From assembly GCA_051313645.2 (NCBI GenBank), contig JBNRSN020000161.1, forward strand, positions 682,001-746,000: a stretch of DNA of 64,000 bases. Direction: 5' to 3'. Below are positions 6,684 through 58,573 of this stretch, piece by piece; within the stretch, counting starts at the first letter, position 1, and each line of letters starts with the position of its first letter. The notes beneath the pieces were generated by a model. That model was not told where the DNA came from, did no database searches, and was given only the letters and a program-made list of their open reading frames with translations. Source of the stretch: Centroscyllium fabricii. Its lineage: Eukaryota. The position numbers and the translations under genes were made by a program.

Positions 6684-8007
6684 TGACGTATCGTCAATAA
6701 GACAAAGACGAGTAGTTACCTTAACTATAGGCTTTTAATCACTTAAGAATGGAGCTAGCCTCCAGTCGAACATTGAGTACAGAATGAATGGGGGCAGGTC
6801 AGACCTCACCTATAAGGCTCTCACCTGAGGGGAGGAGTTAGAGGTGTGGCTGACCTGACCTCGCGACAGTGTCCTTATACAGTGCACCCAGCCACTATAC
6901 ATGCTGGTCTGTAGTGTAACTCAACTACATACAATGGTAATATGATTATCACATTCACCCCTTCTTTGAAAATGAGTCCGGCGGGGTGAATGGACAGAAC
7001 CGGTTAGTGCAAAAAAAATTTGTATGAGTCCAGATCAACAGTTCTCAATGAGTCTCTCCGGCGGTCGTGTCTGCCGTGAGGACCGCCGGGGTTCCGGTAG
7101 CGGCGCTGGTGCCGGTTGTGGCGGCGGGGCCGGGTCCGGGTCCTCCAGCAACTGTGCCTGCGGTGTGGCGTCTGGTCCTGGGTCCTCAGCTGATAGTGTC
7201 GGGGGCCCCGGTGTGTGCGTGTGCATAGGTGGTGGTTGGTGTGTAGGCCAGTGGTCGGTAGGCGGTGGCTGGTCGGGCTGAGGCTCGACCAGGGGCTCTG
7301 CTGTAGTGCTCCCGGCGGGCGCTAGGTCCCTGATGGAAACTGTGTCCTTGCGCCCGTCCGGGAACTGCACGTAGGCATACTGCGGGTTGGCGTGCAGCAG
7401 CTGTACCTTTTCCACCAGGGGGTCGGTCTTATGGCCGCGGACATGTTTCCTAAGTAAGACCGGCCCCGGCATCGTGAGCCACGGTGGGAGTGCCGTCCCC
7501 GAAGTCGGCTTCCTGGGGAATGAAAATAATAAATCATGAGGTGTGGCATTTGTAGCCGTACACAGCAGTGGGCGGATGGAGTGGAGCGCGTCTGGGAGGA
7601 CTACCTGCCAACGGGACACTGGAAGGCCTCTGGACTTCAGGGCCAGGCTGACCGCCTTCCAGATGATCCCGTTCTTCCTTTCTACCTGGCCGTTCCCCCG
7701 GGGGTTGTAACTGGTCCTTCTGCTTGAGGCAACCCCTTTCTGAAGCAGAAACTGACGCAGTTTGTCGCTCATGAATGACGAACCCCGGTCGCTATGGATG
7801 TAGCTGGGGAGACCGAAAATGGCGAACAGCGTGGTGAAGTTTCTTATCACTGTTGCGCTCATCATATCTGGGCAGGGGAGGCGAAGGGGAAGCGGGAGAA
7901 CTCGTCCACGACCGTGAGGAAGTACGAGCTGCGGTCGGTGGAGGTGAGGGGGCCTTTGAAGTCCACGCTTAGACGTTCAAAGGGGCGGGGTGGCCTTAAT
8001 GAGGTGC
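6684..8007 (-). mobile_element. Gypsy element A: 3' LTR (6684-6953) plus integrase, truncated
   Basis: TG...CA LTR preceded on the minus strand by the polypurine tract (PPT) GGGGTGAA. ORF 7035..7865 has the rve core (IHSDRG, YNPRGNGQVER). It is cut at ~8007, where the tandem triplication starts. Confidence 0.9.
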
Positions 8008-10835: not shown

Positions 10836-11350
10836 ATGAGAGGGCTGTCCTATGATGAGAGATTGTGTAGAATGGGCCTATACTCTCAGGAGTTTAGAAG
10901 AATGAGAGGTGATCTCATTGAAACATGCAAGATTCTGAAGGGGATTGACAGGATAGAAGCTGAGAGGTTGTTCCCCCTGGCTGCAGTGTCTAGAACTAGG
11001 GTGCACAGTCTCAGGATAAGGGGTTTCGCCCTGGCTGCAGTGTATAGAACTGGGGGGCATAGTCTCAGGATAAGGGGTAGGCCATTTAAGACCGACATGA
11101 GGAGGAATTTCTTCACCCAGAGAGTGGTGAACCTATGGAATTCTCTGCCACAGAGGGTGGTGGAGGCCAGTTCATTAAATATATTCAAGAAGGAGTTAGA
11201 TATATTCCTTAAGGCTAAAGGGATCAAGGGATATGGGGAGAAGGCACAGACAGGTTACTGAATTTGGATGATCAGCCATGATCTCATTGAATGGCGGAGC
11301 AGGCTCGAGGGGCTGAATGGCCTACTCCTGCTCCTATCTTCTATGTTTCT
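10836..11350 (+). mobile_element. CR1 3' end with an internal ~58-bp duplication (duplicate at 14099-14615)
   Basis: GLSYDERLCRMGLYSQEFRRMRGDLIE...FFTQRVVNLWNSLP, then the CR1 hairpin and CTATGTTT tail. Confidence 0.85.
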
Positions 11351-15907: not shown

Positions 15908-15944
15908 TCACAAGCTTTCGGAGCGCTGCTCCTTCGTCAGGTGA
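15908..15944 (-). ncRNA. Minimal hammerhead ribozyme (intact core)
   Basis: Minus strand TCAC-CTGACGA-AGGAGCAGCGCTCC-GAAAGCTT-GTGA. Confidence 0.8.
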
Positions 15945-20900: not shown

Positions 20901-22250
20901 GACCGATGACCCCATTCTCCACAACACTGCCAAGGATGGCCAGACGGGTAGTACTAAACACGCACTTTTCGGTGTTATAAGTTAAGTTAAGTGTTTTGGC
21001 GGTGTGGAGACATTTCTGGAGGTTGGCGTCATGGTCCTGCTGGTCGTGGCCGCAGATGGTCACGTTATCGAGGTACGGGAAAGTGGCTCGCAGCCCGTAC
21101 CGATCGACCATTCGGTCCATCTCCCTTTGGAAGACCGAGACCCCATTCGTGACGCCAAACGGGACCCTAAGGAAGTGATAGAGGCAACCGTCAGCCTCGA
21201 AGGCTGTATAGAGACGGTCCTCTGGGCGAATGGGAAGCTGGTGGTAAGCGGACTTGAGATCGATGGTGGAGAACACCCTGAACTGTGCGATCTGGTTCAC
21301 CATGTCCGATATCCGGGGAAGGGGGTAGGCATCTAACTGGGTGAACCGGTTTATGGTCTGACTGTAGTCAACGACCATCCGGTTCTTCTCTCCGGTTTTG
21401 ACCACCACTACCTGCGCCCTCCAGAGGCTATTACTGGCCTCGATGACCCCCTCTTTCAGGAGGCGCTGCACCTCGGACTTAATAAAGTCCATGTCCCCAG
21501 CACTGTAGCGCCTACTCTTGGTGGTGACGGGCTTGCAGTCTGGGGTGAGGTTGGCGAAGAGTGAGGGGGGGGCGACCTTAAGGGTCGAGAGGCCACAGGT
21601 AGCGTGCCGGGGGTGCTGCACTGAGCGCCGGTTTCTGACCGTGAGCGAGGGAAGGGGCCCACCGAACGCCATGGTAACACTCTGGAGGTGGCACTGGAAG
21701 TCCAGGCCCAAAAGAAATGGGGCGCAGAGCTGCGGCAGCACGAAAAAACTAAAATTATCAAAGAGCGCGCCCTGTACCGTTAGTGCAACTGTGCAACGCC
21801 CGGAGACGTCCGCGGATTCTGATTTAGAAGCCATCGAAATTCTTTGGCTCGCAGGTATAACCTTAAGGGAGAGGCGCTCTACTGTCTCGGGATGAATAAA
21901 ACTCACCGTGCTCCCACTGTCGAAAAGGCACACCACTTCTTGTCCATTTACTTCTACAGGCATCATCGAATTCCCGAGCGGTTCGGCCTTGTTCTGGCCG
22001 AGAGTCACCGATGCCAATATTGGGTCAGCCGATTCTTCTTGATCCAAAGAGTAGTCCTCCGGTGCTGATCCCCAAGATGGCTGCCGCCATGTGGTGTACT
22101 GCGGAGGGGGTGGCTGGGTCCAATATGGCGACTGCTGCCACGCGGGGAGCTGAGTGGGGGATGGTTGAGTCCAATATGGCTGCTCCCATGTTCCACACGC
22201 GGCGCTGCCCGGTTTCGGTTTCGTGGTTGATGTGGTCGCCTTACAGACTT
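17946..22250 (-). mobile_element. Gypsy element B: 3' LTR 17946-18248, PR-RT-RNaseH-IN, 5'-truncated in gag
   Basis: ORF 20296..22047 (LFDSGS protease, PYLDNV RT, ESDASD RNase H) and ORF 18303..19844 (HHCC, rve integrase). PPT GGGGTGAA. Interrupted by an insertion at ~19735-20392. Confidence 0.95.
19735..20392 (-). mobile_element. GC-rich non-autonomous non-LTR element inserted in Gypsy B RNase H
   Basis: Splits the KNDK|ILRWRIEL motif. The minus strand ends in GACAATAAAATTT(AACTTG)3, and there is an internal 29-bp tandem repeat at ~20089-20146. Confidence 0.7.
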
Positions 22251-22767
22251 TGGCATCAGTCTGAGATCAGTGAGGCACAGTCACAAAGGGTCAAATGCTG
22301 CAGTCCTGTGTCTGTGCGAAAACACACAGAATGATTTTTTTAAAAGGATTTTCCTTACAAGACAAACACGACTCTAGTCTGGATGACTCTACGTCAGGCA
22401 GGGTCACATGTAGCGTGACATGAAGCCAATATCACGGTTGAGGTCGTCCTCATGGGTGCGAAATTTGGCTATCAGCCTCTGCTCGACGCTTTTGCGTTGT
22501 CGGGTGTCTCGAAGGCCACCTTGGAGAATGCTTACCCGAAGATCGGAGGCTGAATGTCGTTGACTGCTGAAGTGTTCCCCGACTGGGAGGGAACACTCCT
22601 GCCTGGCAATTGTTGTGCGGTGTCCGTTCATCCGTTGTCGTAGTGTTTGCATGGTCTCGCCGATGAACCATGTCTTTTCCTGCAACGTATGAGGTAGACA
22701 ACGTTGGTCGAGTCACATGAGTATGTACCATGTACCTGGTGTGTGGTGTCCTCACGTGTCCTCACAG

Positions 22768-40671: not shown

Positions 40672-43600
40672 TGATGTGCCATCAATACCTCAAAGACAAG
40701 AAGTTAAAGGATTCAACTGTAGGCTTTTAATCGCTAAGAACATTGCACGTCATTCCCCATCGGGTTCCTCTGGCAGAATGACTCATACAGCTCATAGAAA
40801 CATAGAAACATAGAAGATCGGAGCAGGAGTAGGCCATTCGGCCCTTCAAGCCTGCTCCACCATTCAATGAGATCATGGCTGATCATCCAACCCCAGCACC
40901 CCGCCCCTGCCCTCTCACCATATCCCTCGATCCCACCCTATCCCCGTAACCCCACATATTCAATCCCCCTAACACTAAGGGTCAATTTATCATGGCCAAT
41001 CAACCTAACCCGCACATCTTTGGACTCCTGAGACCTTTATGTGACAAAAGACAGGGGCGGAGCCAATACAGACAGGGGCGGGGCCAATACACACAAAGGG
41101 AAAAGGGTGCGGTACACACAATACAATACAGGTAAAACCACAGGGCTGATGAAAGACATATATTTCATCAGATTCACCCCTTCTACAGATTTAGTCTGTC
41201 CGGGGGGGTGATAGTCCTTCCTGAACGTCGCAACAGTGCCTCGGGTTCAGGCCGGGAGTCCGTGGTGCCCTCCTGGGCATACCCATGTGCTGGGGGTGTT
41301 GCAGGTACTTCTGGGGGTGGTGAGGATACCTCTGGGGATGGTGAGAAAGCATTGTTGTTGCTTCCTGCCGCGGCAAGGTCCTTTATGGACACAGTGCCCT
41401 CACGCCCGTCGGCGTGCTTGACGTGTGCGTACTGTGGGTTTGCGTGGAGTAGGTGTACTGCCTCCACGAGTGGATCTGTTTTGTGGCCCCTCACATGCAT
41501 CCGTAGTAAGACTGTCCCTGGGGTGGAGAGCCACGAAGGTAGGGACACTCCGGAGGTTGATTTGCAGGGAAACATAAACATCTTCTCGTGAGGACTGGTA
41601 TTAGTAGCCGTACACAGTAGCGACCTTATCAAGTGGAGTACGTCTGGGAGGACCTCTTCCCAACGGGAGGTAGGGAGGCCTCTAGACCTTAGCACGAAGG
41701 TGACCGCCTTCCACACCGTCGCGTTCTCCCTCTCCACTTGCCCATTACCCCGGGGGTTATAACTAGTGGTCCGACTCGTGGCTATCCCCTTTGACAGCAG
41801 GTATTGGCGCAGTTCGTCGCTCATGAACGACGCCCCCCTGTCAGTGTGGATGTAGTTCAGCATGTCAAACATGCAAAACAGGCTGCCGAGGCACTTGATG
41901 ACCGTGGCACTGGTCATGTCTGGGCAGGGGTAGGCGACTGGGAAGCGGGAGTACTCATCCACAATGTTGAGAAAGTACACATTGCGGTCGGTGGAGGGGA
42001 GGGGTCCCTTGATATCTAAGCTCAGGTGCTCGAATGGCCGTGTAGCTTTGATCAGGTGGGCTCGGTCGGGCCTGTAAAAATGGGGCTTGCATTCCGCACA
42101 GGTGCGGCAGTCCCTGGTCATAGACCGGACCTCCTCGATGGAATAGGGCAGGTTACGGGATTTTATAAAGTGAAATAGCCGGGTGACCCCCGGGTGGCAG
42201 AGGTCATTGTGGAGGCCCTGTAGCCTGTCCCACTGGATGCTGGCACACATCCCTCGTGATAGGGCGTCAGGGGATTCGTTGAGGGCCCCGGGCCTATATA
42301 TTATGTCGTACTCAAACGTGCAGAGTTCGATCCGCCACCTGAGAATTTTGTCGTTCTTAATCTTCCCCCACTGTTTGTTGTTGGACCAGTTTTCGATCGC
42401 CTAGATGGGTCAGAGAGGAATTTCACAGATTTTTTCTCCCAAATTGGCCACTGGGTTTTTTATCTGGTTTTTCGCCTATCCCGGGTGATCACATGGGTTT
42501 GGGCGGGATGGAGAGTAAAAATAAAATTGAGGTTAGGATCAGATCAGCCATGATCTTGTTGAATGGCAGAGCAGGCTCGAGGGGCCGATTGGCCTACTCC
42601 TGCTCCTATTTCCTATGTTCTTATGTTAAACATGAAGGCTACCGACCACTGGTTGGTAAGCAGGGTGAAGCGTTTTCCGGCTAGGTAGTGCCTCCAGTGC
42701 CGCACTGCCTCCACTATGGCCTGGGCCTCCTTCTCTACCGAGGAGTGCCTGATCTCGGGCCCTTGGAGGGTTCTTGAGAAAAAGGCTACAGGCCGTCCAT
42801 CCTGGTTGAGGGTGGCTGCTAAGGCAAAGTCGGACACATCGCTTTCGACCTAGAAAGGGATGTTTTCATCCACTGTCCACAGCGCGGCCTTCTCAATGTC
42901 GTGTTTAATGTTGAAGGCAGTGTGGGCTTCGGCCGTGAGCGGGAAGGACGTTGATTTCAGGAGGGGACGGGCCTTGTCGGAATAATTGGGGACCCATTGG
43001 GGGTAATAGGAGAAAAACCCCAGGCACCTTTTCAGGGCCTTGGGAGTGTTTGGTAGGGGTAGCTCCCGTAGGGGGCGCAATCGGTCGGGGTCTGGACCGA
43101 TTTCCCCATTTTCCACCACGCAGCCCAGGATACAGAGGCGCGTGGTGCTAAAGACACACCTATCCTCGTTGTAGGTGAGATTGAGTCTGCGGGCGGTTTT
43201 CAGAAATCTCGCAAGGTTCGAGTCGTGGTCTTGCTGGTTGTGGCCGCAGATGGTGGCGTTGTCTAGGTATGGATAGGTGGCTGTTAACCGGTTCTCATCG
43301 ACCATGCGGTCCATCTCCTGCTGGAAGACCGAGACCCCATTCGTTACCCCAAAGGGGACGCATGGGAGTGGTAGAGGCGTCCGTTCGCCTCAAAGGCAGT
43401 GTATGGACGGTCCTCCGGCCTAATGGGGAGCTGGTGGTATGCCGATTTTAGGTCGATGGTGGAAAACACCCGGTATTGTGCAATTTGGTTAACCATAACC
43501 GCTATGCGGGGCAGAGGGTAGGCATCTAGCTGGGTGTATAGATTAACCGTCTGGCTATAATCTATCACCATCCGCTTCTTATCGCTACCCTTAACTACTA

Positions 43601-45426
43601 CTACCTGGGCGCTCCACGGGCTGGCACTGCATTCGATAATACCCTCCCGCTTGAGTCTTTCTACTTCAGACGCAATGAACCGTCTGTCCTCCCAGCTGTA
43701 CCGCCTACTCTTGGTCGCTATGAGTCGACACTTAGGTGCGAGGTTGGCGAACAGAGAGGGCGGCTTGACCTTCAGGGTAGCCAGACTGCACACTGTGAGG
43801 GGCGGCTGGGACCCACTGTAGGTAAGTGTGATACTTTGGTGGTGGCACTGGAAGCCCAGACCCAGGATCATGCTCACACAGAGGTCTGGCATTATCAACA
43901 GTTTAAAATCTCTGTAATCATTGCCTTTTACCAACAACATAACCGCGCAGAAACCTGTAATATGTGAGGTATGAGTCTTATCAGCCATGGTGATTTTGCC
44001 CTGTGTAGGGACTATCGTTAGTGAAAGTCATTTTACCAGGCTAGGATGAATAAAGCTTTCGGTGCTCCCGCAGTCAATCAAGCATTTAACCTTGTTCCCG
44101 TTTACCTCTATGTCCATCATCGATTTAGACAACGGATACGGCCTGGATTGATCCACTGTGATTGAGGCCACCCGTGGGTCCTGGGGGTCCGTGGAGTCGG
44201 GACAAGATGGCATCCAAGATGGCTGCCCCCACGGCGTGCACGCGGCGGGACAAGATGGCTGCCCCCACGGTGCGCACGCGACGGTGGCGGAGTTAGAGGC
44301 GGGGTTCCCTCTGCAGACTTTGCTGAAATGTCCTTTCTTCCCGCATTTAAAACAGGTGGTGCCCTTCTCTGGGCACAGATGCCTGGAGTGTCTGTCCTGG
44401 CCGCAAAAGTAGCATTTCGGGCCCCGATGCATCGCGGCAGTAGTGGGGCTCCTGGGTGGAGGCTGGGGCTCCGATGGTGCTGGGCTGGCCTGAAACCTGG
44501 GAGGTGAAGATGGCTTCCAAGATGGCTGCCCCCATGGTGCGCATGAGGCGGTCTGGGCCGCGTGGCCTGAGGAATAGGATTCAGCGTTCCTCTGGGCCAT
44601 ATCCAGCGATCGCGCTATGTCTATAGCCTGTTTTATGCCAGTCCCTCCTTTTCAAACAGTCTCTGCCGAATGTAATTTGGACTGAGGCCCGCAATAAAGG
44701 AGTCGCAGATCAGCTCCTCCGTGTACACGGTGGCAGACACGGCCTTACAATTACAGTCTCTGCCCAGTACTTTCAGGCTTCGCATGAAGTCCTCTAGTGG
44801 CTCACCATGCCACTGCATGCGAGTAGTCAGAAGATGCCTGGCATACACCTCGTTTATTGGCCGCACGTAGTGGGCCTTCAGGATGGTGCAGGCATCCTCA
44901 TAGTTGACAGCATCTTGGATGAGAGGGGAGACCCGATGACTCACCTGGTTTCGCAGGATTCCCAGTTTCACATCTCCAGTGGCGGTCGCGGCTGCTATGG
45001 CGGTGGCTGAGGTTTCAATGAAAAATTCAAAGCATTGGAACCAGTGTCTGAACTGTGTGGCTGTGTCTGTGGCATGGGGGTCCAGATCCAAGCGCTCAGG
45101 TATCAGGAGTCAATCCACCTTGGTGTTTTAGCGATTAAAATTGATGTGCCATCAATAACTCAAAGACGAGAAGTTAAAGGATTCAACTGTAGGCTTTTAA
45201 TCGCAAAGAACATTGCACGTCATTCCCCATCAGGTTCCTTAGGCAGAATGACTCATGCAGCTCCTGAGACCGTGTGACAAAAGACAGGGGCGGAGCCTAT
45301 ACAGACAGGGGCGGGGCCAATACAGACAGGGGCGGGGCCAATACACACAAAGTGAAAAGGGTGCGGTACACACAATACAATACAGGTAAAACCACAGGGC
45401 TGATGAAAGACATATATTTCATCACA
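40672..45426 (-). mobile_element. Gypsy element C, full length, decayed; LTRs 45142-45426 (5') and 40672-41172 (3', SINE-interrupted)
   Basis: 5-bp TSD GCCAG on both sides, inside a Deu-SINE. Gag with CCHC knuckles, protease LIDCGS, RT, RNase H and integrase are broken over several ORFs. A secondary insertion lies at ~42383-42626. Confidence 0.95.
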
Positions 45427-45569
45427 GCCAGGACACCAGGGATAACTTCCCTTCTCTTCGAAATCGTGCCATGGGGTCTTTTACATCCACCTGAGACAGC
45501 AGACAGGGCCTCTGTTTAACATCTCATCCGAAAGATGACACCGCCAACAGTGCAGCATACAGTCACAAA

Positions 45570-48500
45570 TGGCCGAAAAATTGGCACTCTAGGGCCGGTG
45601 CCAAATTAGCGCCCAAAATGGCACCCCGCGCTAAATTCAGCTGGGCGCTAAGTTGGGGGCTAACTGGTAGCACGCCAACGAATTTTGCGCCCAGTTGGTC
45701 ATCGTGAATGATGTCGTCAGTCTGCGCAGTGCCTGGGAGGCGCTGCGCGGCCGCAATTAGGCAGCGCCCGCCGTTTAATCGCGGGGTGCTGCCCGCGCCA
45801 GCTTTATGCAGTCCTAGCAGCAGCACCCGAGCGCTGCTTAAAGGGAAGTGCGGCGGTCGGCAATTTTATTACTGGCCGACCGCCAGCACCTTCCAACATT
45901 CCATAGACTCTCGATCAGTTCCGATGGAGTGGATGGTGGCTAATGTAACCCCACCTTTTAAAAAAGGAGGGAGGGAGAAAACAGGGAATTACAGACTGGT
46001 CAGCCTGACATTGGTAGTGGGTAAAATGATGGAATCAATTATTAAGGATGTCATAGCAGACCATTTGGAAAGTGTGGATTTGTGAAAGGGAAATCATGCT
46101 TGACAAATCTTCTGGAATTTTTTGAGGACGTTTCCAATAGAATAGACAAGGGAGAACCAGTGGATGTGGTGTACTTGGACTTTCAGAAGGCTTTTGACAA
46201 GGTCCCACACAAGAGATTGGTGTGCAAAGTTAAAGCACATGGGATTGGGGGCAATGTGTTGACGTGGATTGAGAACTGGTTGGCACACAGGAAACAAAGA
46301 GTAGGAGTAAATGGGCAGTTTTCAGAATGGCAGGCAGTGACCAGCGGGGTACCACAAGGTTCAGTGCTGGGGCCCCAGCTGTTTACATTATATATTAATG
46401 ATTTGGACGAAGGGATTAAATGTTGTATCTCCAAATTTTCAGATGACACTAAATTGGGAGGCAGTGTGAGCTGCGAGGAGAATGCTAAGAGGCTACAGAG
46501 TGACTTGGACAGGTTAGATGAATGGGCAAATGTATGGCAGATGAAGTACAATGTGGATAAATGTGAGGTTATCCACTTTGGTGGTAAAAATAGAAAGACA
46601 GACTATTATCTGAATGGTGACAGATTAGGGAAAGGGGAGGTGCAACGAGACCTGGGCGTCATGGTACATCAGTCACTGAAGGTGGAAATGCAGGTACAGC
46701 AGGCAGTTAAAGCAAATGGCATGTTGGCCTTCATAGCAAGGGGATTTGAGTACAGGAGTAAGGAGGTGTTGCTACAGTTGTACAGGGCCTTGGTGAGGCC
46801 ACACTTGGTATGTTGTGTGCAGTTTTGGTCTCCTAACTTGAGGAGGAACATTCTTGCTATTGAGGGAGTGCAGCGAAGGTTTACCAGATTGATTCCCGGG
46901 ATGGCCGGACTGACATATCAAGAAAGACTGGATCAACTGAACTTGTACTCTCTGGAGTTCAGAAGAATGAGGGGGGATCTCATAGAAACGTTTAAAATAC
47001 TGACCGGTTTAGACAGGTTAGATGCAGGCAGAATGTTCCCAATGTTGGGGAAGTCCAGAACCAGGGGGCACAGACTAAGGATAAGGGGTAAGCCATTTAG
47101 GACTGAGATGAGGAGAAACTTCTTCACCCAGAGAAACATAGAAACATAGAAACATAGAAAATAGGTGCAGGAGTAGACCATTCGGTCCTTCGAGCCTGCA
47201 CCGCCATTTAATGCGTTCATGGCTGAACATAAGAACATAAGAACACAAGAAATAGGAGCAGGAGTAGGCCAATCGGCCCCCCGGGCCCGCTCCGCCACCC
47301 AATAAGATCATGGCTGATCCTACCCTAACCTTCATACCACTATCACCCTTCATCCCACCCAAAGAACCATGTGATCTCCTGGGAGAGGCGAAAAACTGGA
47401 TAAAAACCCAGGTCCAATTTGGGAAAAAAATCCGGGAAATTCCTCTCCGACCCCAATCTAGGCGATCGAAACTTGTCCAGGAGATCACTCAGGTCTTACT
47501 ATACTAACAATAGCTCAGGTCCACTTCCCTGCCCGCTCCCCGTAACCCCTAATTCCCTTGTCTGCTAAAAAACAGTTTTATTCTGTGGAATTCTCTACCA
47601 CAGAAAGTTGTTGAGGCCAGTTCACTAAATATATTCAAAAGGGAGTTAGATGTAATACTTACAACTAGGGGGATCAAGGGATATGGTGAGAAAGCAGGAA
47701 CGGGGTGCTGATGTAGCATGTTCAGCCATGGACGTATTGAATGGCGGTGCAGGCTCGAAGGGCCGAATGGTCTACTCCTGCACCTATTTTCTATGTTTCT
47801 ATGATCTCCCTCGGCTTCCCCCTCGGCCTCCCCCGCTGCTCCCCGGTGGGGTGAGGCCTCCCTCAGCTGAGCCCGGCACTTCCCCCGAGTGCCGAGCTCG
47901 TTATGCGGTTCCCGGTCCCTCGGCGGCCCCGCGGGGCTCTGGCCGCAGCCGCGCTAGGCCCCGCCCCTTTAATGGGGAAGGCCGGCCTGCCGTTCCACAG
48001 GCCGCCGCTGTGGCCTCACTCGCGCAGCGTGACGCCAGCACCCAGGATTTCAGCCGCCTTGCACTAAGAGCGAGGCGGCCCGCTCGATTCCTCGCCTGCC
48101 CAAACGGAATGGGCGATGCGGCCAACTGCGGCATTTTTAGCGCCAGCGATGAGCTGATGCTAAAAATAGTGCATCGCCCGGGTCAGCGCCACAATTTGTG
48201 CGCTGACCAATTTTTCGGCCCAGTCCTAGGGGGAATAATTGGTCAGCGCACACTTTGTGGTGCTGACCTGGGCGATGCGCTATTTTTAGCACCAGCTCAT
48301 CGCTGCCGCTAAAAATCCCGATATTGGCCGCATCGCCCATTATGGTTGGGCGGGCGAAGAATCCGGTGGGCTGCCTCGCTCTTAGTGCGAGCTTGCCGAA
48401 TACCTGGGCACGGGCGCCGTGCTGCGTGACTGAAGCCGCAGCGGCGGCCCGCAGAACGACAGGTCTCCCTCCCCCATTAAAGGAGAGGGGCCGAGCGCGG

Positions 48501-48770
48501 CTGCGGCTGCGGCCAGAGCCCCGCGGGGCCGCCGAGGGACAGGGAGCCGGAGAACGAACCAAGCACTCAGGGGAAGTGCCGGGCTCAGCTGAGGGAGGCC
48601 TGACCCCACCAGGGAGCAGCGGGGGAGGCCGGGGGAGGCCGAGGGGGGAGCTGCTGGCGGTCGACCAGCAATAAAAATGGCCGACCGCCGCACTTCCCTT
48701 CAAGCAGCGCTTGGGCGGGGAAAGCTGGCACGGGCAGCGCCATGAGGCAGGACCGCAGGCGCTGCCCAAT
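45570..48770. repeat. GC-rich MITE-like family, two inverted copies; the first is split by a CR1
   Basis: 45570-45890 plus 47803-48220 begins GGCCGAAAAATTGG and ends CCAATTTTTCGGCC. 48232-48770 is an inverted second copy, and related sequence occurs at 58574-58840. Confidence 0.7.
45890..47802 (+). mobile_element. CR1 LINE RT region and 3' end with nested SINE pieces
   Basis: ORF 46082..47149 (355 aa) carries the CR1 RT motifs. The 3' end resumes at ~47584 and ends in the CTATGTTTCTATG tail. Confidence 0.92.
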
Positions 48771-48772
48771 TT

Positions 48773-49388
48773 CGGTGATAGTACTGTATCCGCATTTCTG
48801 AGTATCTATGTTTGTTGGGCAGAACCCATGGGTGCTGCTCTCTGAATGTGAAGTTGGACTGTTGCAGTCTTCCTCCTACACCGAGTAGTTCGTGTTTGTC
48901 CAGGACTGGTCTGAGTTCTTTGATCTTACAGTCCTTGTTTAGGCCTTTCCCTGCCTTCAATAATTTGATCTCCTGACTGAAACTCTGTTGTTGTGTTACT
49001 TTGGTCCAGTACTTTTCTGCCTCGAGGAGTTTGTCAGCAGTCAGTTCACCTCATGTCGTTGTGTTTGTTAGAGCATTAGCTGTGAATCTCTTTATCCAGG
49101 CAGTCACTCTGAACACTCTTTTTAGTTTGCTGTACCCTTCTAGCTCCAACAGCGTTTCAGTGACGTCTGCGTCATTTGCGGCGAGCTGTACAGCAACCTG
49201 GTGACTGGACTTAAGTTCTGTGTTCACCTCTTCTAGAACATGGTCGTCATCAGTCTCCTCTGACTGATCGGGTGATGTCAGAACACTGGGTCCGTTCCAC
49301 TATAACTGGCTCTGTGTCAAGTTTTAAACAGTTTGTCCTCTTGTAGGGAGGTCGGTTGGATTAAGTCTTCCCTGCGATGTGTGACCAT
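48773..49388 (-). mobile_element. BEL/Pao LTR retrotransposon fragment (RNase H to integrase region)
   Basis: The minus strand gives NPTDLPTRG, WNGP, RVTAWIKRF and LGVGGRLQQS...HPWVLP, with stops. Confidence 0.8.
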
Positions 49389-52300
49389 TGTGGTAAACCA
49401 CTGTGTTATATATCTGTACCATATCTATAACCTTTAGCATTGTATGTATGACCCTCTCTGTGTGTATATAGTTCCCCATGTATAGCTTGCCTGGGCATGC
49501 CCGTGCTGACTCCGCCTGCGGCCCCTCATCCATGGACCAGGTATAAAGGTGACTGTCTCCCTCCCCCCGATCATTCCGGGAGCAGTCGACTAGTTGGGGC
49601 ATGCCCATGTCTTAGCGAATAAAAGCCTTTTATTCACCACATAACTTCTCGTCTCCAAGGTTATTGATAAGGTATCAATTTTATTCACTAAATTTCATCA
49701 TGGAGCTAATGCTAAAACCAGCGACGTTAGAACTGGATCCCCAAGCGCCAGGCGCCTCTAACACGTTTACGCACTGGTTCAACTGCTTCGAGGCGTACCT
49801 TGAAGCCACCGCTTCGATCGTCCAGACGGACAGAGACAAACTGCGCCTTCTCAATGCCCGGGTGGGCCCCCAGGTGTACTTAATAATCGCGGACGCTACG
49901 TCCTATACCGAGGCGGTCCGAATCCTGAAGGCCGAATACACCCGGGCACCGAACATCGTCTACGCCAGACACCTCCTGGCCACCAGAAAGCAGCAACCCG
50001 GGGAATCGGGCGTGGAGTTCCTACGAGCGCTGAGAGTCCTCTGCCGGGCCTGCAACTGTAAGTCACAGTCAGCCTTGGTGCACGCCGAAAGCCTCATCAG
50101 GGACGCTTACATCACCGGCCTCAGGTCAGATTATATCAGGCAAAGACTGTTGGAGCAGGATGGCCTGGACCTGCAGGCAACGGTGAACTTGCAAACTCGC
50201 TGGGCTTGGCGTCCCATAATATGGCCGCTTTCTCCTCTGACCATGCGGGCACATCGCGGACGACGCCATCTTGGACGCAGCCGGCCGCATTGCGACCAGC
50301 GGATGAGATGACTGCGGCTACAACCTCCAGAGGCCAAAAGTGTTATTTCTGCGGCCAGGCTCAGCACCCCAGGCGAAATTGCCCGGCAAGAGACGCGGCC
50401 TGCTCCAAGTGCGGAAAGAAGGGCCATTATGCGAAGGTATGCAGAGCGGCAGCGCAATCGACCTCCAAACCGGGCAGCGCCGCGTGTGACCCGTGGGGGC
50501 AGCCATCTTGGACACAGCAGGCAGCACCATCTTGGACACAGCCATCCTCCACACAGACCGCCGCGTGGGAGCAGACGCCATCTTGGACACAGCCATCTTC
50601 CACACAGCCCGCCGCGTGGCGGCAGCCATCTTGGGACCAGGCCCCAGACCTCTCAACCGACTCCACCGACCCGATACTGGCCTCAATCACCCTCGACCAG
50701 AACAGGAGCCAACCACTCAGCAAGTCGATGATGACGGTGCAGGTGAACGGGCAAAGTACGGACTGCCTTTTCGACAGCGGGAGTACGGCGAGCTTCGTAC
50801 ACCCTGATACGGTAAAGCGCTTCTCCCTAAAGGTTACTCCAGCTAGCCAAAAGATTTCGATGGCTTCAAAGTCCGAATCCGCGGACGTCTGCGGTCACTG
50901 CGCAGTGACCCTGACAGTGCGGGGCGTGCACTTTCAGAATTTTAAACTATTCGTGCTGCCGCAGCTCTGCACTCCCCTACTGCTGAGCCTCGATTTCCAG
51001 TGTCAGCTCCAGAGCGTGACAATGGCGTACGGTGGGCTCCTTCCCCCGCTCACGGTCAGCAACCAGCGCTCCCCGCAGTGCCCACAGCACGCTACCTGCG
51101 GTCTCTCGACCCTTAAGGTCGCCCCTCCCTCACTCTTCGCCAACCTCACCCCGGACTGCAAGCCCGTCGCCACCAAACGTAGGCGCTACAGTACCGGGGA
51201 CAGAGACTTTATTAAGTCTGAGGTGAAACGGCTCCTGAAGGAAGGGGTCATCGAGGCCAGTAATAGCCCCTGGAGGGCGCAGGTAGTGGTGGTAAAGACC
51301 GGAGCCAAGCACCAAATGGTCGTTGACTACAGTCAGACCATTAATCGGTTCACACAGCTAGATGCGTATCCCCTCCCCCGCATAGCAGACATGGTGAACC
51401 AGATAGCCCAGTATCGGGTCTTCTCGACCATCGATCTGAAGTCTGCGTACTACCAGCTCCCCATCTGCCCAGAGGACCGCCACTATACTGCCTTCGAGGC
51501 AGACGGCCGCCTCTATCACTTTCTCAGTGTTCCGTTTGGTGTCACCAACGGGGTCACGGTCTTCCAAAGGGAGATGGACCGAATGGTTGATCAGTACGGA
51601 CTGCGGGCCACCTTTCCGTATCTTGATAATGTTACCATCTGCGGCCATGATCAGCAGGACCACGACACCAACCTCCAGAAATTTCTCCACACCGCCATAA
51701 ATCTGAACCTGACTTATAACACGGAAAAATGTGTGTTCAGGACAACCCGCCTCGCCATCCTCGGCAGTGTTGTGGAGAATGGGGTCATCGGTCCCGACCC
51801 GGACCGCATGCGCCTCCTCCTGGAGCTCCCCTTCCCCCACTCCCTCAAGGCCCTGAAAAAGTGCCTGGGGTTCTTTTCTTCTTATGCCCAGTGGGTCCCC
51901 AACTACGCGGACAAGGCCCGCCCACTTATTAAATCAACCTCCTTTCCCCTGTCGGCAGAGGCCCGCACGGCCTTCTGCGGTATTAAACAGGACATTGCAA
52001 AGGCCGCGATGCACGCTGTGGACGAGTCCATCCCGTTCCAGGTAGAGAGCGATGCGTCCGACTTTGCCCTGGCCGCCACCCTTAACCAGGCGGGCAAACC
52101 CGTGGCCTTCTTCTCGCGCACCCTCCAGGGCCCCGAGACCCGACACTCTTCCATTGAGAAGGAGGCCCAGGCCATTGTTGAAGCAGTGCGACGCTGGAAG
52201 CACTACCTGGCCGGCAAACGATTTACCCTGCTGACTGACCAACGCTCAGTTGCTTTTATGTTCAACAACAAAAAGCGGGGTAAAATCAAGAACGACAAGA

Positions 52301-55300
52301 TGTCGAGGTGGAGAATCGAACTCTCCGCTTTCAATTATGATATCTTGTACCGGCCCGGGAAATTCAATGAGCCCCCAGATGCCCTGTCCCGTGGTACATG
52401 TGCCAGCGCACATGTAGACTGTCTCCAGACCCTGTGTAACCGTCAATAACGTCTTCGGAGTCGAATAGTTGGTTATAATAATCAGGCTTTTATTAACTAC
52501 GTTTAGCAATACTCAACAGAGCTGACTGTCCCCAGAATGGCATGGGGGATGGGGGCAGTCGCTTATATACCTCCTCCAGCGGGGGAGGAGTCATGGGCGG
52601 CGCCAGGTATGTCCCTGGGATCCCATACAGGTATTACAAGGTATTACAGGTATTACAAGGTATTACAAGGTATTACAAGGTGGTTCGTTATATACAGTGA
52701 TATATGGTTTATCACATTCACCCCTTCTTTGAAACAAAAGTACAGCGGGGTGAACAAAACACAGAAGTACAACGGGGTGAAAAAAACTAATAATTACAAG
52801 GTGCTCATTAACACAATATATACAATCAGAGTTCTTATGACTATAAATTCAGTCTTTCAGGCGGTTTCGTTATCCGCGCTGATCTTCGCACCGCTGGTGG
52901 TGCCTGTGGTGTTCGTTGTCGTGGAGTGGCTGGTTGTGTCGGTTGTTCCCTTGCTGCCGGTCGACTGGTGGTGGTTATGTCACTTCTGGGTGGCGGTGAT
53001 GCCCTTATTCCGACAGCAGGGGGCGCGTTTTCTCCTTCGTCCTCTGGCTGTAGGGGGCGCGCGTTGTGGATCCAGGCTTGGGGCCGGGTCGTGCTGCTCG
53101 CAGGTGCCTTGTGGACATACTGGGGTACTGGGCCCACGTGTCGGGGCGTGTACTTCGGCCTCGGTGGCTCGGGGGGCGTCCCAGGACGTTTTGGGAGCTC
53201 GGGCTGCCTGGCGGGGCTGGTTTTGGGGGCTCCTGCTGGGGCTAGGTCCTTTATGGACACGGTGTCCTCCCTCCCGTCGGGGTACTCTATGTAAGCGTAC
53301 TGGGGATTGGCGTGCAGGAGGTGGACCCGTTCGACTAGGGGATCTGCCTTGTGTCCCCTCACATGCTTCCGCAGCAGGACCGGTCCCGGAGTTAGCAGCC
53401 ACGATGGTAGCGAGGTCCCGGAAGCTGACTTCCTGGGGAAGGCAAAAAGTCTTTCGTGAGGGGTGGCATTAGTGGCAGTACACAGTAGGGACCGGATAGA
53501 GTGGAGGGCTTCAGGGAGAACGTCCTGCCACCGGGTGACTGGGAGGTCTTTGGACTTTAGGGCTAACTGGATGGCTTTCCAGACCGTGGCGTTCTCTCTC
53601 TCTACCTGCCCGTTCCCCCGGGGGTTGTAGCTGGTAGTCCTGCTAGTCGCGATGCCTTTTGCTAGCAGGAACTGACGCAGCTCGTCACTCATAAAAGAGG
53701 CCCCCCGGTCACTATGGATATAGTTCGGGTACCCGAACAGGGAGAAGATGCTACTGAGTGCTTTGATGACGGTGGCTGAGGTCATGTCCTGGCAGGGTAT
53801 GGCGAAGGGGAAACGGGAGTACTCATCTATAACATTGAGGAAATAGACGTTCCTGTTGGCTGAGGGAAGGGGCCCTTTAAAATCGACGCTGAGTCGTTCA
53901 AAGGGGCGAGTGGCCTTGATTAAGTGCGCCCGGTCGGGCCGGTAGAAGTGCAGCTTGCACTCCGCGCAGACCTGGCAGTTGCTGGTCATGGTCTTGACTT
54001 CCTCGATGGAGTAGGGGAGGTTGCGGGACTTCACAAAGTGAACCAACCTGGTGACCCCCGGGTGGCAGAGGTCATTGTGAAGGGTTTGGAGACGGTCAGC
54101 CTGTGCGCTGGCACAGGTACCGCGGGATAGGGCATCTGGGGGTTCGTTAAATTTCCCGGGCCGGTACAAGATATCGTAATTGAACGCAGATAGTTCAATT
54201 CTCCACCTTAATATCTTGTCGTTCTTGATCTTACCCCGCTCTTTGTTGTTGAACATAAAAGCGACTGAGCGTTGGTCAGTCAACAGGGTAAAACGCTTGC
54301 CGGCCAGGTAGTGCTTCCAGTGCCGCACTGCTTCAACAATGGCTTGGGCCTCCTTTTCAATTGAGGAATGGCGGGTTTCTGGGCCTTGGAGGGTACGTGA
54401 AAAGAAGGCCACGGGTCTGCCCGCCTGGTTAAGGGTGGCGGCCAGGGCAAAGTCAGATGCATCACTTTCCACTTGGAATGGGACGGACTCATCCACAGCG
54501 TGCATCGTGGCTTTGGCTATGTCCTTTTTAATTCTGCAGAATGCCGAGTTGGCTTCTGCAGAAAGTGGGAAAGAGGTTGATTTTAATAGTGGGCGAGCTT
54601 TGTCCGCGTAATTGGGGACCCACTGGGCATAATAGGCAAAGAATCCCAAAATCCGTTTAAGAGATTTGGGGGAGTGGGGGAGGGGAAGCTCCATGAGGGG
54701 GCGCATGCGGTCCGGGTCTGGACCGATGACTCCATTCTCCACCACGTTTCCGAGGATGGCAAGGCGGGTGGTGCTAAACACACATTTCTCCTTATTATAC
54801 GTTAAATTCAGAGTTTTGGCCGTGTGGAGAAATTTTTGGAGATTGGTGTTATGGTCCTGCTGGTCATGGCCGCGGATGGTCACATTATCAAGGTACGGGA
54901 AGGTCGCTCGCAGCCTGTACCGATCGACCATTCGGTCCATCTCCCTTTGGAAGACCGAGACCCCGTTCGTGACTCCAAACGGCACCCTAAGGAAGTGGTA
55001 GAGGCGGCCGTCAGCCTCAAAGGCAGTATAAAGACGGTCCTGTGAGCGGATGGGGAGCTGGTGATAAGCAGATTTTAGGTCAATGGTTGAGAACACTTTA
55101 AACTGGGCGATTTGGTTCACCATGTCCGCTATCCGGGGAAGGGGGGTAGGCATCTAATTGGGTGAACCGGTTTATGGTCTGGCTGTAATCCACTACCATC
55201 CTATTCTTCTCCCCGGTTTTCACCACGACTACCTGTGCTCTCCAGGGGCTATTACTGGCCTCTATGACCCCTTCTTTTAGGAGGCGCTGCACCTCAGATT

Positions 55301-58300
55301 TTATAAATGCCATGTCCCCAGCACTGTAGCGCCTACTCTTGGTGGCGACGGGCTTACAGTCTGGGGTGAGGTTGGCAAAGAGGGATGGAGGGGCAACCTT
55401 AAGGGTTGAGAGACCACAGGTAGTGTACTGGGGGTACCGCTTTGAGCCGCGGTTTGTGACCGTGAGAGGGGGAAGGGGTCCACCGAATGCCATCGTAACG
55501 CTCCGAAGATGGCACTGGAAATCCAGTCCCAGGAGTAGGGGGGCGCAGAGCTGCGGCAGCACGTAAAAACTAAAATCATTAAACATTGCGCCCTGTACCT
55601 TAAGAGTTACAATACAGCGCCCGGTGACGTCAGCGGATTCTGACTTGGACGCCATAGATATTCTCTGGCGCGCAGGGATTACTTTAAGGGAGAGGCGCTT
55701 AACAGTATTCTGGTGAACAAAACTTACTGTGCTCCCACTGTCGAACAGGCACACCACCTCTTCACCGTTAACTTCCACCGGCATCATTGACCTCTCCAGT
55801 GGCTGGATTTTCCTCTGGTCTAGGCTCATGGATGCTAGTACCAGGTCCTCCACAAAGTCTTGATCCGGAGAGTAGTTATCTTGGTCCAGAGAGTAGTTAT
55901 CTTGATCCGGAGAGTAGTCCTCCAGATCAGCTTCCTGAGATGGCTGCCGCCATGTGCTGTGCTGTTGAGTCCAAGATGGCCGCCGTTGCTGCCTCGAGTG
56001 CTGCCTCGAGGGGGATGGGTGAGCCCGATATTGCTGCTCCCCTGTTCCACATGCAGCGCTGCCCAGTCTTGATTTAGCGTTTGGGCCTTTGCAGACCTTT
56101 GCATAGTGTCCCTTTTTGTCGCACTTGGAGCAGATCGCTTCTTTTGCGGGGCAGCTGCGTCTTAGATGCTGTGGTTGTCCACAGAAGTAACATTTAGCTT
56201 TAGCGTGGGCCGCTGTGAGAAGTTCCTCTGGCGGTCTTTGCGCCAGTACTGTCCAAGATTGCGGGGCTGGGCCCGTATAGTTACTAGAGTAGGATGATAA
56301 ATCCGTAGAGGCGCTATCTAGCGCGTGTCCCAAGTCTATAGTGGCCTGTAAGTCCTGGCCATTCTGCTCTAGCAGTCTTTGCCTAGCATAGTCCGATTTC
56401 AGGCCTGTTACATAGGCATCCCTGATGAGACTCTCCATATGCACCAGAGCCGTTTGCGCTCTGCAGTCACAATCCCGTGCCAGAATTCTGAGGGCTCTTA
56501 GGAACTGCACACTCGACTCGTTATTCTGTTGTTTTCGGGTGGCAAGTATATGTCTCGCGTGGACTCTGTTTGGTGCCCGATTGTATTCCGCCTCGAGGGT
56601 CCTGAGGGCTTCTTGGAATGATGGGGCGTCCACTATCATCGAATATACTTGCGGGCCCACCCGGGCGTGGAGGAGTCGTCGTTTTTGCTCCTCGGTCAGT
56701 ATGACCGCTGCGTTGGCTCTAACGTATCCTTCAAGTACATTTCGCCAGTGTGAGAAAGCGTTTGATGCTCCAGGCGATCGGGGGTCAACTTCGAACACTG
56801 ATGGTTTCAACATTGTAGTATCCATTTCCAGTTGTTAATAAAATTGTAACCGTCAATAACGTCTTCGGAGTCGAATAGTTGGTTATAATAATCAGGCTTT
56901 TATTAACTACGTTTAGCAATACTCAACAGAGCTGACTGTCCCCAGAATGGCATGGGGGATGGGGGCAGTCGCTTATATACCTCCTCCAGCGGGGGAGGAG
57001 TCATGGGCGGCGCCAGGTATGTCCCTGGGATCCCATACAGGTATTACAAGGTATTACAGGTATTACAGGTATTACAAGGTATTACAAGGTATTACAAGGT
57101 ATTACAAGGTGGTTCGTTATATACAGTGATATATGGTTTATCACACCCTGCACAACGACCTCTGCCACCCGGGGGTCACCAGGTTCGTCCACTTTATTAA
57201 GTCCCGCAACCTCCCCTACTCCATCGAGGAGGTCAGAACCATGACCAAGAACTGCCGGGTCTGTGCAGAGAGCAAGCCGCACTTCTTCCGGCCTGACCGG
57301 GCACACCTGATCAAGGCCACCCGCCCCTTTGAGCAACTTAGAGTCGACTTTAAAGGGCCCCTCCCCTCCTCCAACCGCAACGTGTACTTTCTCAACGTCA
57401 TTGACGAGTACTCACGTTTCCCCTTCGCCATCCCCTGTCCAGACATGACCTCCTCCACGGTCATTAGGGCGCTGCACAGCATCTTCTCCCTGTTCGGGTA
57501 CCCCAGCTACATCCATAGCGACCGGGGTGCCTCCTTCATGAGTGACGAGCTGCGTCAGTTTCTGCTCACCAAAGGCATCGCCACGCACAGGACTACCAGC
57601 TATAACCCCCGGGGGAACGGACAGGTAGAGAGGGAGAACGCCACCGTCTGGAAGGCCATCCTATTAGCCCTACGGTCTAAAGGCCTCCCAGTCTCCCGCT
57701 GGCAGGACGTCCTCCCCGAAGCGCTCCAGGAAGTCGGCTTCAGGGACCTCACTGCCGTCCTGGCTATCATCCCCAGGACATGTCCTGCTCCGGAAGCACG
57801 TGAGGGGCCATAAGTCGGACCCCCTGGTCGAACGGGTCCATCTCCTGCACGCCAACCCCCAGTACCCCTACGTGGCGTACCCTGATGGGCGGGAGGATAC
57901 GGTGTCCATCAAGGACCTGGCACCCTCAGGTGCCCCAGAGACCACTACGACCCACCAGCCTGCACCCCCCCCACCCTTGTGGCACCAGCACCACGGTACG
58001 TCATACCCCTCGAGGCACCAGGACCACGGTACGCCCACCCAGCACCTGCAGGCAGCACGGTATGGCCCTCAAACCTACGCACCCGCCAGCCGGACGACGA
58101 ATGGGAGAGCGCACCAGTGATCATAACCGCAAGGGGCCCCGCGTCGGAGCAAGCTCCGTCACCGACTCGTCCGCCGCCGACTCCGCCGCCAATGGTATGC
58201 CGCTCCACCAGGCAGACCAAGCCATCCGACAGACTGAACATTTAAGGGTTGCCCAACATTTACCCCGCCGGACTTTATTTTAAACAAGGGGTGAATGTGG

Positions 58301-58573
58301 TAAACCACTGTATTATATATCTGTACCCGTTAGCATTGTGTGTATGACCCTGCTGTATGTACATAGTTCCTCATGTATGGCTTGTCCGGGCATGCCCGTG
58401 CTGACCCCGCCTGTGGCTCCTCCTCCCCGGACCCAGGTATAAAGGTGACTGTCTCCCTCCCCCCAATCATTCCGGGAGCAGTCGACTAGCTAGGGCATGC
58501 TCATGTCTTAGCGAATAAAAGCCTTTTATTCACTACATAACTTCTCGTCTCCGAGGTTTTTGATAAGGTATCA
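49389..58573 (+). mobile_element. Gypsy element E: LTRs 49389-49677 and 58296-58573, gag-pol interrupted by element D
   Basis: Gag 49699-~50200, a frameshift, then ORF 50206..52449 (CCHC, PR, RT, RNase H). Integrase resumes at 57146 with an internal deletion near 57727. PPT GGGGTGAA precedes the 3' LTR. Confidence 0.95.
52435..57145 (-). mobile_element. Gypsy element D, full length, very young, nested in E
   Basis: LTRs 52435-52716 and 56845-57145 differ only in GTATTACA(A)G repeat count. TSD CCCTG (52430-52434, 57146-57150). ORFs 55098..56825 and 52841..55153 cover gag-PR-RT-RH-IN. Confidence 0.97.

What the first reader, a model, noticed from the sequence alone, without database searches (positions are those of the whole stretch)
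45128..56910. Gypsy elements with no tRNA primer site: an antisense copy of their own LTR poly(A) signal follows the 5' LTR, co-varying in three subfamilies
Seen: none of the three elements with a 5' LTR has a TGG-type PBS. In each, one base after the LTR-terminal CA comes a 13-mer complementary to the poly(A)-signal segment of that element's own LTR. E: LTR TTAGCGAATAAAA (49612-49624) vs TTTTATTCACTAA (49679-49691). D (minus): LTR GTAGTTAATAAAA (56898-56910) vs TTTTATTAACAAC (56831-56843). C (minus): LTR TT(T/A)GCGATTAAAA (45195-45207; perfect in the other LTR near 40725) vs TTTTAATCGCTAA (45128-45140). The LTRs otherwise look dissimilar, yet pairing is kept (12-13/13), including AATAAA-to-ATTAAA compensation. 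Gag starts only ~20 nt later in D and E. Known: Tf1/sushi elements self-prime using the transcript 5' end, and retroviruses occlude the 5' poly(A) signal with hairpins. Inference: this is a tRNA-independent self-priming fold and/or a poly(A)-occlusion switch in a chromodomain-less Gypsy lineage. In E the paired segment is ~70 nt downstream of a TATAAA at 49541, so it may not be the transcript 5' end as in Tf1, implying a different mechanism.
Basis: partly seen in the sequence, partly recalled or inferred. Interest (0 to 1): 0.85.

Follow-up and report, generated by a model that had tools for sequence, protein, structure and literature searches.

The report
Jumping genes primed by own RNA
A large family of Gypsy retrotransposons, abundant in this genome and with relatives across animals, has no tRNA landing site; that site instead pairs with a 13-base stretch of the element's own terminal repeat, and about 200 faulty genomic copies indicate that the element likely primes DNA copying with the first ~50 bases of its own RNA, a longer primer than the 11-base one known from yeast Tf1.

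Summary
Confirmed and extended. The leader starts one base after the LTR's CA and pairs 13-14 bp with an LTR segment ending in A(A/T)TAAA(A). Pairing holds with compensatory changes in 23 of 25 gag-defined families, 19 from metagenomes, and in 90 of 90 copies at a polymorphic site. Only something complementary to this site can prime, so self-priming is likely. In three lineages the stop rate peaks 4-8-fold within 2 nt of a TATA/Inr start predicted beforehand (50-54 nt upstream of the arm's 3' end), then collapses. The primer is therefore probably the 5' ~52 nt of the transcript, cut right after the poly(A) hexamer, unlike Tf1's 11-nt 5'-terminal primer. No chromodomain. Cleavage, start site and poly(A) occlusion are inferred; no RNA data exist here. 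The clade could not be named. Ten literature searches found no description; Repbase and key older papers were not visible. The scan earlier noted similar pairing in BEL/Pao and copia elements of other genomes (untested here).

The parts
49389..49677 (+). Element E 5' LTR (TG...CA)
49542..49549 (+). E TATA box, 31 nt before the Inr A
49573..49624 (+). E predicted primer: Inr A(+1) to the last A of the poly(A) hexamer (52 nt); inferred
   Evidence: copy ends in E-family junctions pile up within 2 nt of 49573
49612..49624 (+). E LTR arm (pairs with the primer-binding site; contains AATAAA), followed by conserved GCC
49679..49691 (+). E primer-binding site, one base after CA; 12/13 here, 13/13 in most relatives
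49700..52434 (+). E gag-PR-RT-RH, frameshifted, interrupted by insertion of D
52435..52716 (-). Element D 3' LTR (arm 52488-52500, no PBS after it); 5-bp target duplication shared with the 5' end
52841..56825 (-). D gag (two CCHC)-PR-RT-RH-IN, one frame break, no chromodomain
56831..56843 (-). D primer-binding site; position 11 is a private mutation
56898..56948 (-). D predicted primer (51 nt), arm at 56898-56910; inferred
   Evidence: modal copy end exactly at the Inr A in D junctions
56845..57145 (-). D 5' LTR, TATA at 56972-56979
57146..58573 (+). Remainder of an E-type element: integrase, polypurine tract, 3' LTR 58296-58573 (87.6% to the 5' LTR, no matching target duplication, so possibly a chimera)
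45142..45426 (-). Element C 5' LTR; Inr 45245-45251; arm 45195-45207 with ATTAAA
45128..45140 (-). C primer-binding site
41183..45109 (-). C gag-pol, broken into several frames
40672..41172 (-). C 3' LTR split by a repeat insertion; perfect arm at 40725-40737; 5-bp target duplication
17946..22266 (-). Element B of the same clade: 3' LTR 17946-18248 (arm 18001-18014) and pol; 5' end lost
6684..7976 (-). Element A of the same clade: 3' LTR 6684-6953 and integrase fragment; its relatives' leaders pair with their own arms

Best explanation
These Ty3/Gypsy elements have a primer-binding site that pairs with a 13-14-base segment of their own LTR, and they likely prime reverse transcription with the 5' ~50-54 bases of their own transcript, which would be cut just after the poly(A) hexamer. 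Steps: (1) transcription likely starts at a TATA/Inr site 50-54 nt upstream of the arm's 3' end (inferred from copy ends in three lineages of this genome); (2) the arm pairs with the site one base after the LTR's CA (shown as covarying complementarity; folding in RNA predicted); (3) a cut at AAA|RCC, probably by the element's RNase H as in Tf1 and guided by a short helix starting at RCC, would free the 3'-OH (inferred); (4) plus-strand synthesis copies the retained primer, which would rewrite the PBS each cycle and so keep the pairing; copying of the unpaired 5' tail leaves faulty integrated products (the products are shown, their origin inferred); (5) the same duplex may hide the hexamer in the 5' LTR (untested).
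For: No TGG site; pairing in 23 of 25 gag clusters, 250 of 253 pairs at positions 1-11 against 179 by permutation, up to four pair types per position; with the register set on positions 1-7 and all copies averaged, pairing is 0.89-1.0 through position 12, 0.80 at 13, 0.65 at 14-15, background from 17. Position 8 is C-G in 53 and T-A in 37 of 90 copies, none discordant; of 158 markers only the arm site is perfectly tied to the PBS site, markers between and beside them have 6-12 discordant copies. Family A, present here only as a 3' LTR, has 5,761 junctions and 25-30 of 30 sampled pair at each of positions 1-14. Junctions continuing as the antisense of the LTR: 89, 81, 1 and 102 pattern matches, reversed-pattern control 0. 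Stop rate per base before / within 2 nt of the Inr / after: 0.021/0.120/0.001, 0.021/0.079/0.003, 0.017/0.136/0.006 (86, 79, 49 independent junctions; Fisher wall vs before 5e-9, 8e-5, 1e-8). In D and E no hairpin ends at the wall. 33 wall junctions land in sense element sequence with a mean 2.5 nt of microhomology; 14 short-copy products end in an LTR end with a matching target duplication. The copy matches the element's own LTR variant in 55 of 61, plus 5 with one point change, against 0.20 expected from a mixed pool. RCC follows the arm (G/A 23, C 21, C 19 of 23) and starts a helix longer than in shuffles (89 vs 64 bp summed, 0 of 1000). Tf1 cDNA is known to keep a DNA copy of its primer (PMC11042837).
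Against: No transcript start, cleavage product or RNA-DNA junction was observed. In the B/D2 lineage a 6-bp hairpin does end at the wall, so only D and E are clean tests. The +/-2 window was chosen after seeing B/D2. The 5' RNAs fold no better than shuffles overall (z -0.6 to -0.9). An AG(T) at arm positions 11-9 in 21 of 23 families looks like an initiator and would fit an 11-nt Tf1-type primer; metagenome LTRs show no TATA at a fixed distance, so the long primer is evidenced only for this genome. How normal second-strand transfer deals with a ~40-nt unpaired tail is unexplained. One C-family junction only, and it is a full fold-back.
Confidence: 0.72

Rival explanations
1. Self-priming, but with a short primer (11-14 nt excised by two cuts, or from a second start at the AGT inside the arm); the long antisense copies arise when plus-strand strong-stop DNA re-anneals to the arm of a second, uncut RNA and runs to its cap.
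For: AG(T) fixed at positions 11-9 in 21 of 23 families matches Tf1's 11-nt length (PMC7175516); normal leaders outnumber over-copied ones about 100:1 (8,371 vs 89); a short primer makes second-strand transfer simple.
Against: Compensatory pairing continues past position 11 (42 of 46 at 12-13 vs 18 permuted; 0.94 and 0.80 unselected); position-11 variants show no end-of-template hotspot (3 A, 5 C, 6 G); copy matches own haplotype. The transcript start at the Inr stands under this rival too.
Confidence: 0.13
2. The primer is a separate short capped RNA from the same promoter (released by paused polymerase, or a prematurely polyadenylated LTR transcript trimmed back to the duplex), supplied in trans without RNase H cleavage.
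For: 50-54 nt is in the size range of pause-released capped RNAs (recalled); the hexamer sits at the primer's 3' end in 19 of 23 families.
Against: Copy matches own LTR variant in 55-60 of 61 vs 0.20 for a pool (same-subfamily supply not excluded); a conserved RCC and helix at the cut point suggest structure-guided cleavage; some arms lack the hexamer.
Confidence: 0.08
3. The duplex serves only to hide the 5' poly(A) signal; priming uses a host tRNA or tRNA fragment.
For: Hexamer inside the arm in 19 of 23 families; retroviral poly(A) hairpins are a precedent (recalled).
Against: The LTR's right end fixes where the primer must bind, and that site changes in step with the element's own LTR across 23 families and within copies, which a host RNA cannot track; pairing persists without a hexamer (L068, L146, L124); the register to CA is invariant. 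No tRNA library was searched.
Confidence: 0.03
4. The antisense copies are DNA fold-backs at a 13-bp inverted repeat that pause at a hairpin, and say nothing about an RNA primer or start site.
For: 45 of 214 junctions run more than 140 nt past the Inr, most to the LTR start, and 7 of 11 scorable B/D2 ones have target duplications, so DNA fold-back does occur; a hairpin ends at the wall in B/D2.
Against: D and E have the wall with no hairpin there (pairing probability at most 0.1 over the last four positions) and no excess of stops at their real hairpin base (0.017-0.019 per base). Fold-back that ends at the LTR start itself needs strong-stop DNA carrying a PBS copy.
Confidence: 0.04

Closest known systems
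Tf1/Tf2 of Schizosaccharomyces pombe and the Tf1/sushi group of chromoviruses
   Same: No tRNA site; LTR segment complementary to the PBS; a helix beside the predicted cut; primer copied into plus-strand DNA (PMC7175516, PMC10085805, PMC11042837; passages read).
   Different: Tf1's primer is the first 11 nt, wholly paired; here the paired 13-14 nt lie at the 3' end of a likely 50-54-nt fragment and usually contain the poly(A) hexamer. No chromodomain; gag has two CCHC knuckles; RT reads YLDN.
Predicted self-priming plant elements: Tcn1 (gypsy) and TAR/Houba/Osr-1 (copia)
   Same: Self-priming inferred from at least 10 bp of LTR-leader complementarity (PMC6317226, passages read).
   Different: Other lineages and hosts; in the passages read no start mapping or primer-copy footprints.
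Cigr-1 / Mag-lineage Gypsy clades of animals
   Same: Short LTRs, one ~1,200-aa gag-pol frame, two CCHC motifs, wide invertebrate range (Cigr-1 and Mag features recalled; clade lists in PMC6238403, PMC8556966).
   Different: No reference sequence was available, so membership is untested; I saw no statement on their priming. A recalled-Mag-like RT in a flanking locus is only 29% identical.
Retroviral poly(A) hairpins (e.g. HIV-1; recalled)
   Same: Hexamer base-paired in the 5' copy of R.
   Different: The partner here is the PBS outside the LTR, so the duplex can form only at the 5' end.

Membership tests
Ty3/Gypsy LTR retrotransposon | gag-PR-RT-RH-IN order | tested here: met
   Pfam
Ty3/Gypsy LTR retrotransposon | TG...CA LTRs, polypurine tract, 5-bp target duplication | tested here: met
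   (C and D; E's ends do not share one)
tRNA-primed LTR elements | PBS starting TGG, complementary to a tRNA 3' end | tested here: not met
   PBS starts with T-T/C-T/A in 23 of 23 families
tRNA-primed LTR elements | PBS complementary to an internal tRNA fragment | not tested
   no tRNA library searched; covariation with the own LTR argues against
Tf1/sushi group | LTR segment complementary to the PBS | tested here: met
Tf1/sushi group | Self-primer is the extreme 5' end (11 nt in Tf1), fully paired | tested here: not met
   copy ends map the 5' end 50-54 nt from the arm's 3' end in three lineages; indirect, this genome only
Tf1/sushi group | Chromodomain at the integrase C-terminus | tested here: not met
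   none in six proteins at E<=0.1 nor in the domain lists
Tf1/sushi group | Three-duplex 'pretzel' fold | tested here: inconclusive
   central duplex and a short helix from RCC supported; third duplex not tested; tail-leader pairing not significant (p=0.23)
Tf1/sushi group | RNase H cleavage makes the primer | not testable with these tools
   needs biochemistry
Tf1/sushi group | RT clusters with chromoviruses | not testable with these tools
   no named reference sequences could be fetched
Cigr-1 or Mag lineage | RT/RH tree placement with the reference elements | not testable with these tools
   motif search in papers and readable supplements found nothing; FASTA supplements unreadable
Gmr1 clade | Integrase upstream of RT | tested here: not met

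The most novel reading that the evidence does not exclude
An animal-wide, non-chromovirus Gypsy lineage evolved its own tRNA-free priming in which the capped 5' ~50 nt of the genomic RNA, cut exactly after the poly(A) hexamer, is the primer, so one duplex both starts reverse transcription and silences the 5' poly(A) signal; and failed replication products preserved in a genome map the primer and the start site to the base without any RNA experiment.
Probability: 0.45. Interest if true: 0.87.

Novelty: new variant of a known kind. Interest (0 to 1): 0.76.

Why it matters
In the papers I could read, self-priming in animals is credited only to Tf1/sushi chromoviruses. This lineage has relatives named from sharks, rays, cnidarians, a ctenophore, a nematode, a spider and a tapeworm (their leaders were not seen) and over 14,000 junctions in just two of its families here. 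If right, tRNA-free priming is common in animal genomes and comes in a second geometry (long primer, internal cut at the poly(A) signal). Such elements would escape tRNA-fragment silencing of the PBS and be missed by PBS-based annotation. The footprint search is a cheap test that separates priming from mere complementarity and can be run on any predicted self-priming family.

Tried and rejected
No RNA holder listed for the E junction; read laying not used. Viral contigs gave no relative. An apparently fixed A-A mismatch at position 11 in D relatives was a retrieval bias: the normal base pairs and variants are rare and unbiased, so no end-of-primer mutation hotspot there. My interim reading that AG(T) at positions 11-9 is the start site (11-nt Tf1-like primer) was displaced; the motif stays unexplained. 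AG as a splice acceptor: rejected, GAG/AAG contexts are common. Pairing of the primer tail with the gag start region: not significant across families (p=0.23). Whole-RNA folding energy: not above shuffles. No tRNA gene in the window and no Rfam match in 40-59 kb. A long PPT-to-LTR-end pattern could not be run on this genome, so PBS retention after 3' LTRs was not counted directly. PDB and ESM Atlas searches did not name the clade. Papers not held: Levin 1995, Lin and Levin 1997 (RNA) and 1998, Atwood-Moore 2006, Esnault and Levin 2015.
Full report
WHAT IS IN THE WINDOW. Five related Ty3/Gypsy elements (A-E) lie in the window, in a 7.2-Gb genome whose closest named relatives of these proteins come from sharks and rays (74-84% identity). 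Domain order is gag-PR-RT-RH-IN with no chromodomain; gag has two CCHC knuckles and RT reads YLDN. D is inserted into E; C and D have 5-bp target duplications, E's two ends do not. C, D and E keep a 5' LTR. In each, CA is followed by one A and a 13-mer complementary to an LTR segment about 54 nt upstream that ends in the poly(A) hexamer. Each window copy has one private mismatch; family members pair 13/13.

IS IT MORE THAN CHANCE. I fetched relatives by gag protein, so without bias on the DNA: 80 metagenome loci (best 80 of 178 confirmed). 63 of 78 scorable loci give at least 11/13 pairs one base after a CA, against 1 of 61 coding controls and 3 of 234 shuffles. Where a second LTR was present it confirmed the LTR end two bases before the PBS in 8 loci (output partly cut). 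With this genome's loci they form 25 clusters below 72% gag DNA identity; 23 have the stem (4 from this genome, 19 metagenomic); the two without are single contigs with at most 128 nt before the gag match. On the best copy per cluster, positions 1-11 pair 250 of 253 (permuted 179), 12-13 pair 42 of 46 (18), 14-18 50 of 115 (42), 19-24 background; that choice favours pairing, so I repeated it with all copies and a register set on positions 1-7 only: 0.89-1.0 through 12, 0.80 at 13, 0.65 at 14-15. The metagenome loci come from few assemblies and unnamed hosts; 13 of the 19 representatives also show RT at 45-64% identity. Within one group of this genome, 90 of 90 copies are concordant at a polymorphic pair, and that pair is the only one of 158 markers in perfect association, tighter than markers physically between the two sites. 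Family A, seen in the window only as a 3' LTR, has 5,761 junctions; in 30 sampled, 25-30 pair at each of positions 1-14 across many sequence variants.

WHAT PRIMES. From established retroelement biology the LTR's right end is set by where the minus-strand primer binds, so the primer must be complementary to this 13-mer. A host tRNA cannot change in step with each element's LTR; a poly(A) tail would pair only 3-4 bases. The LTR arm is the only candidate seen. In Tf1 the primer is retained and copied into plus-strand DNA (PMC11042837, passages), which predicts that faulty products record the primer's length. I searched for LTR end + PBS continuing as the antisense of the LTR upstream of the arm and found 89 (B/D2 group), 81 (E), 1 (C) and 102 (D; some are ordinary B-type leaders) matches, with 0 for reversed patterns. 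I examined all 89, all 81 and 59 of the 102 (the second batch skipped B-type leaders and tandem repeats); 2 D loci were dropped as not over-copied and shared junctions were collapsed, leaving 86, 79 and 49. Ends before / within 2 nt of / 3-140 nt past / more than 140 nt past the Inr A were 38/22/4/22, 35/15/11/18 and 18/17/9/5. The Inr and its TATA box 31 nt upstream had been noted before any of these searches (note) and the test in E and D was written down first; the 2-nt window was set after seeing B/D2. The stop rate rises 4-8-fold at the Inr and then falls 20-100-fold. A template that ends at a canonical start site in three different LTR sequences is most simply an RNA 5' end. A DNA hairpin could explain the B/D2 wall but not D or E, and their real hairpins cause no excess of stops. 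After the copy, the sequence usually resumes inside the element in sense with short microhomology (33 wall junctions, mean 2.5 nt), and 14 short-copy products show a matching target duplication within the fetched span: mis-transferred plus strands that were integrated. The long class mostly ends at the LTR's first base, often with a target duplication: fold-back of strong-stop DNA, which also requires a PBS copy at its 3' end. The copied stretch matches the element's own LTR variant in 55 of 61 (5 more differ by one point change; 0.20 expected from a pool).

MECHANISM, SHOWN AND INFERRED. Shown: the complementarity, its register, its covariation, the antisense copies and where they end. Inferred: start at the Inr; a single cut at AAA|RCC, where RCC is conserved and begins a helix longer than in shuffles; RNase H as the cutter (by analogy with Tf1: PMC7175516, PMC10085805, passages); rewriting of the PBS from the primer. 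The arm-PBS helix is in the predicted fold of all three 5' RNAs, but overall stability is not above shuffles. Untested: poly(A) occlusion; 19 of 23 arms hold AATAAA/ATTAAA, one has it across the cut, three lack it. Open: how normal transfer handles the ~40-nt tail, why AG(T) is fixed at positions 11-9, and whether invertebrate families also have long primers (no fixed TATA). A short primer with re-annealing to a second RNA would give the same wall and is the main rival.

WHAT IS KNOWN. Tf1 uses its first 11 bases (PMC7175516); the Tf1/sushi group is chromoviral and folds a three-duplex structure with the primer at the 5' end (PMC10085805; PMC4600332; PMC5341516); self-priming is also predicted for Tcn1 and TAR (PMC6317226); Skipper and bivalve TRIMs lack a PBS without LTR complementarity being found (PMC5006619, PMC6934838). 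All were read as passages around search terms; PMC3601003 as passages and one section; PMC6238403, PMC8556966, PMC13524379, PMC2774666 and PMC3670739 as passages on clades, with supplement term searches for two (three files of one not searched, FASTA files unreadable; these may hold the clade's name). Ten searches showed no account of self-priming in a non-chromovirus animal Gypsy clade or of a long internally cut primer. Repbase Reports, GyDB pages, Simmen and Bird 2000, Butler 2001 and Levin's original papers were not visible, so the complementarity may have been remarked on; I put that at about 30%. The element works like Tf1 but fails two tested Tf1/sushi features (chromodomain; wholly paired 5'-terminal primer), so I do not file it there. 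Cigr-1 or the Mag lineage are recalled leads, untested. The scan's earlier notes report similar pairing in BEL/Pao and copia elements of other genomes (not checked), and nothing for this sequence or genome.

VERDICT. A real feature; self-priming about 0.9 likely; the long 5' primer about 0.7. New variant of a known kind; interest 0.76.

Noticed in passing
G000 loci among L281-L310, L372-L430, L311-L340: Palindromic LTR-only insertions: LTR, PBS, then the antisense LTR back to its first base; 7 of 11 scorable B/D2 cases have a 5-bp target duplication, so integrase accepted fold-back strong-stop DNA.
   Followed up: partly
window 41171-41172; loci L221-L280: The second base of the 3' LTR is changed (TG to TA/TT/TC) in 7 of 38 copies whose 5' LTR keeps TG; possibly error-prone plus-strand initiation.
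   Followed up: partly
window 18249-18290, 6954-6995, 52717-52745, 58258-58295: An inverted repeat (ATTCACCCC...GGGGTGAAT type) encloses the polypurine tract in A, B, D and, with one change, E; a four-base TGAA lies between tract and LTR.
   Followed up: no
arm positions 11-9, all families: AG(T) is kept at a fixed distance from the predicted cut in 21 of 23 families although any pair would do; unexplained.
   Followed up: partly
L357, L363, L367, L370, L371: Five D-type copies share one over-copy junction with most of gag deleted, suggesting a faulty product that itself multiplied; five more matches lie 2,234 bp apart on one contig.
   Followed up: no
L004, L287, L293, L398, L420, L368: Over-copied primer stretches of 3-53 nt sit directly in front of an otherwise normal gag start.
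   Followed up: partly
window 49552-49588 and 56934-56971: An inverted repeat spans the predicted start site in D and E LTRs; it could form only in the 3' LTR RNA or in DNA.
   Followed up: partly
window 8000-16500: A 3,263-bp unit repeated about three times at 98-100% identity.
   Followed up: no
window 46046-47149, 23699-24298, ~22500-22750: Two other RT fragments, and a stretch at B's broken 5' end that recalls a Penelope-type endonuclease (motif recalled).
   Followed up: no
G000:C669 near 0.997-1.002 Mb and 1.237-1.241 Mb: The C and E junctions of this window recur at 98-100% identity at two other places on the same contig: segmental duplicates.
   Followed up: no
L233, L256, L257, L366, L215, L292, L412, L201: Other Gypsy lineages (27-34% RT identity) lie in flanks; unnamed.
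   Followed up: no
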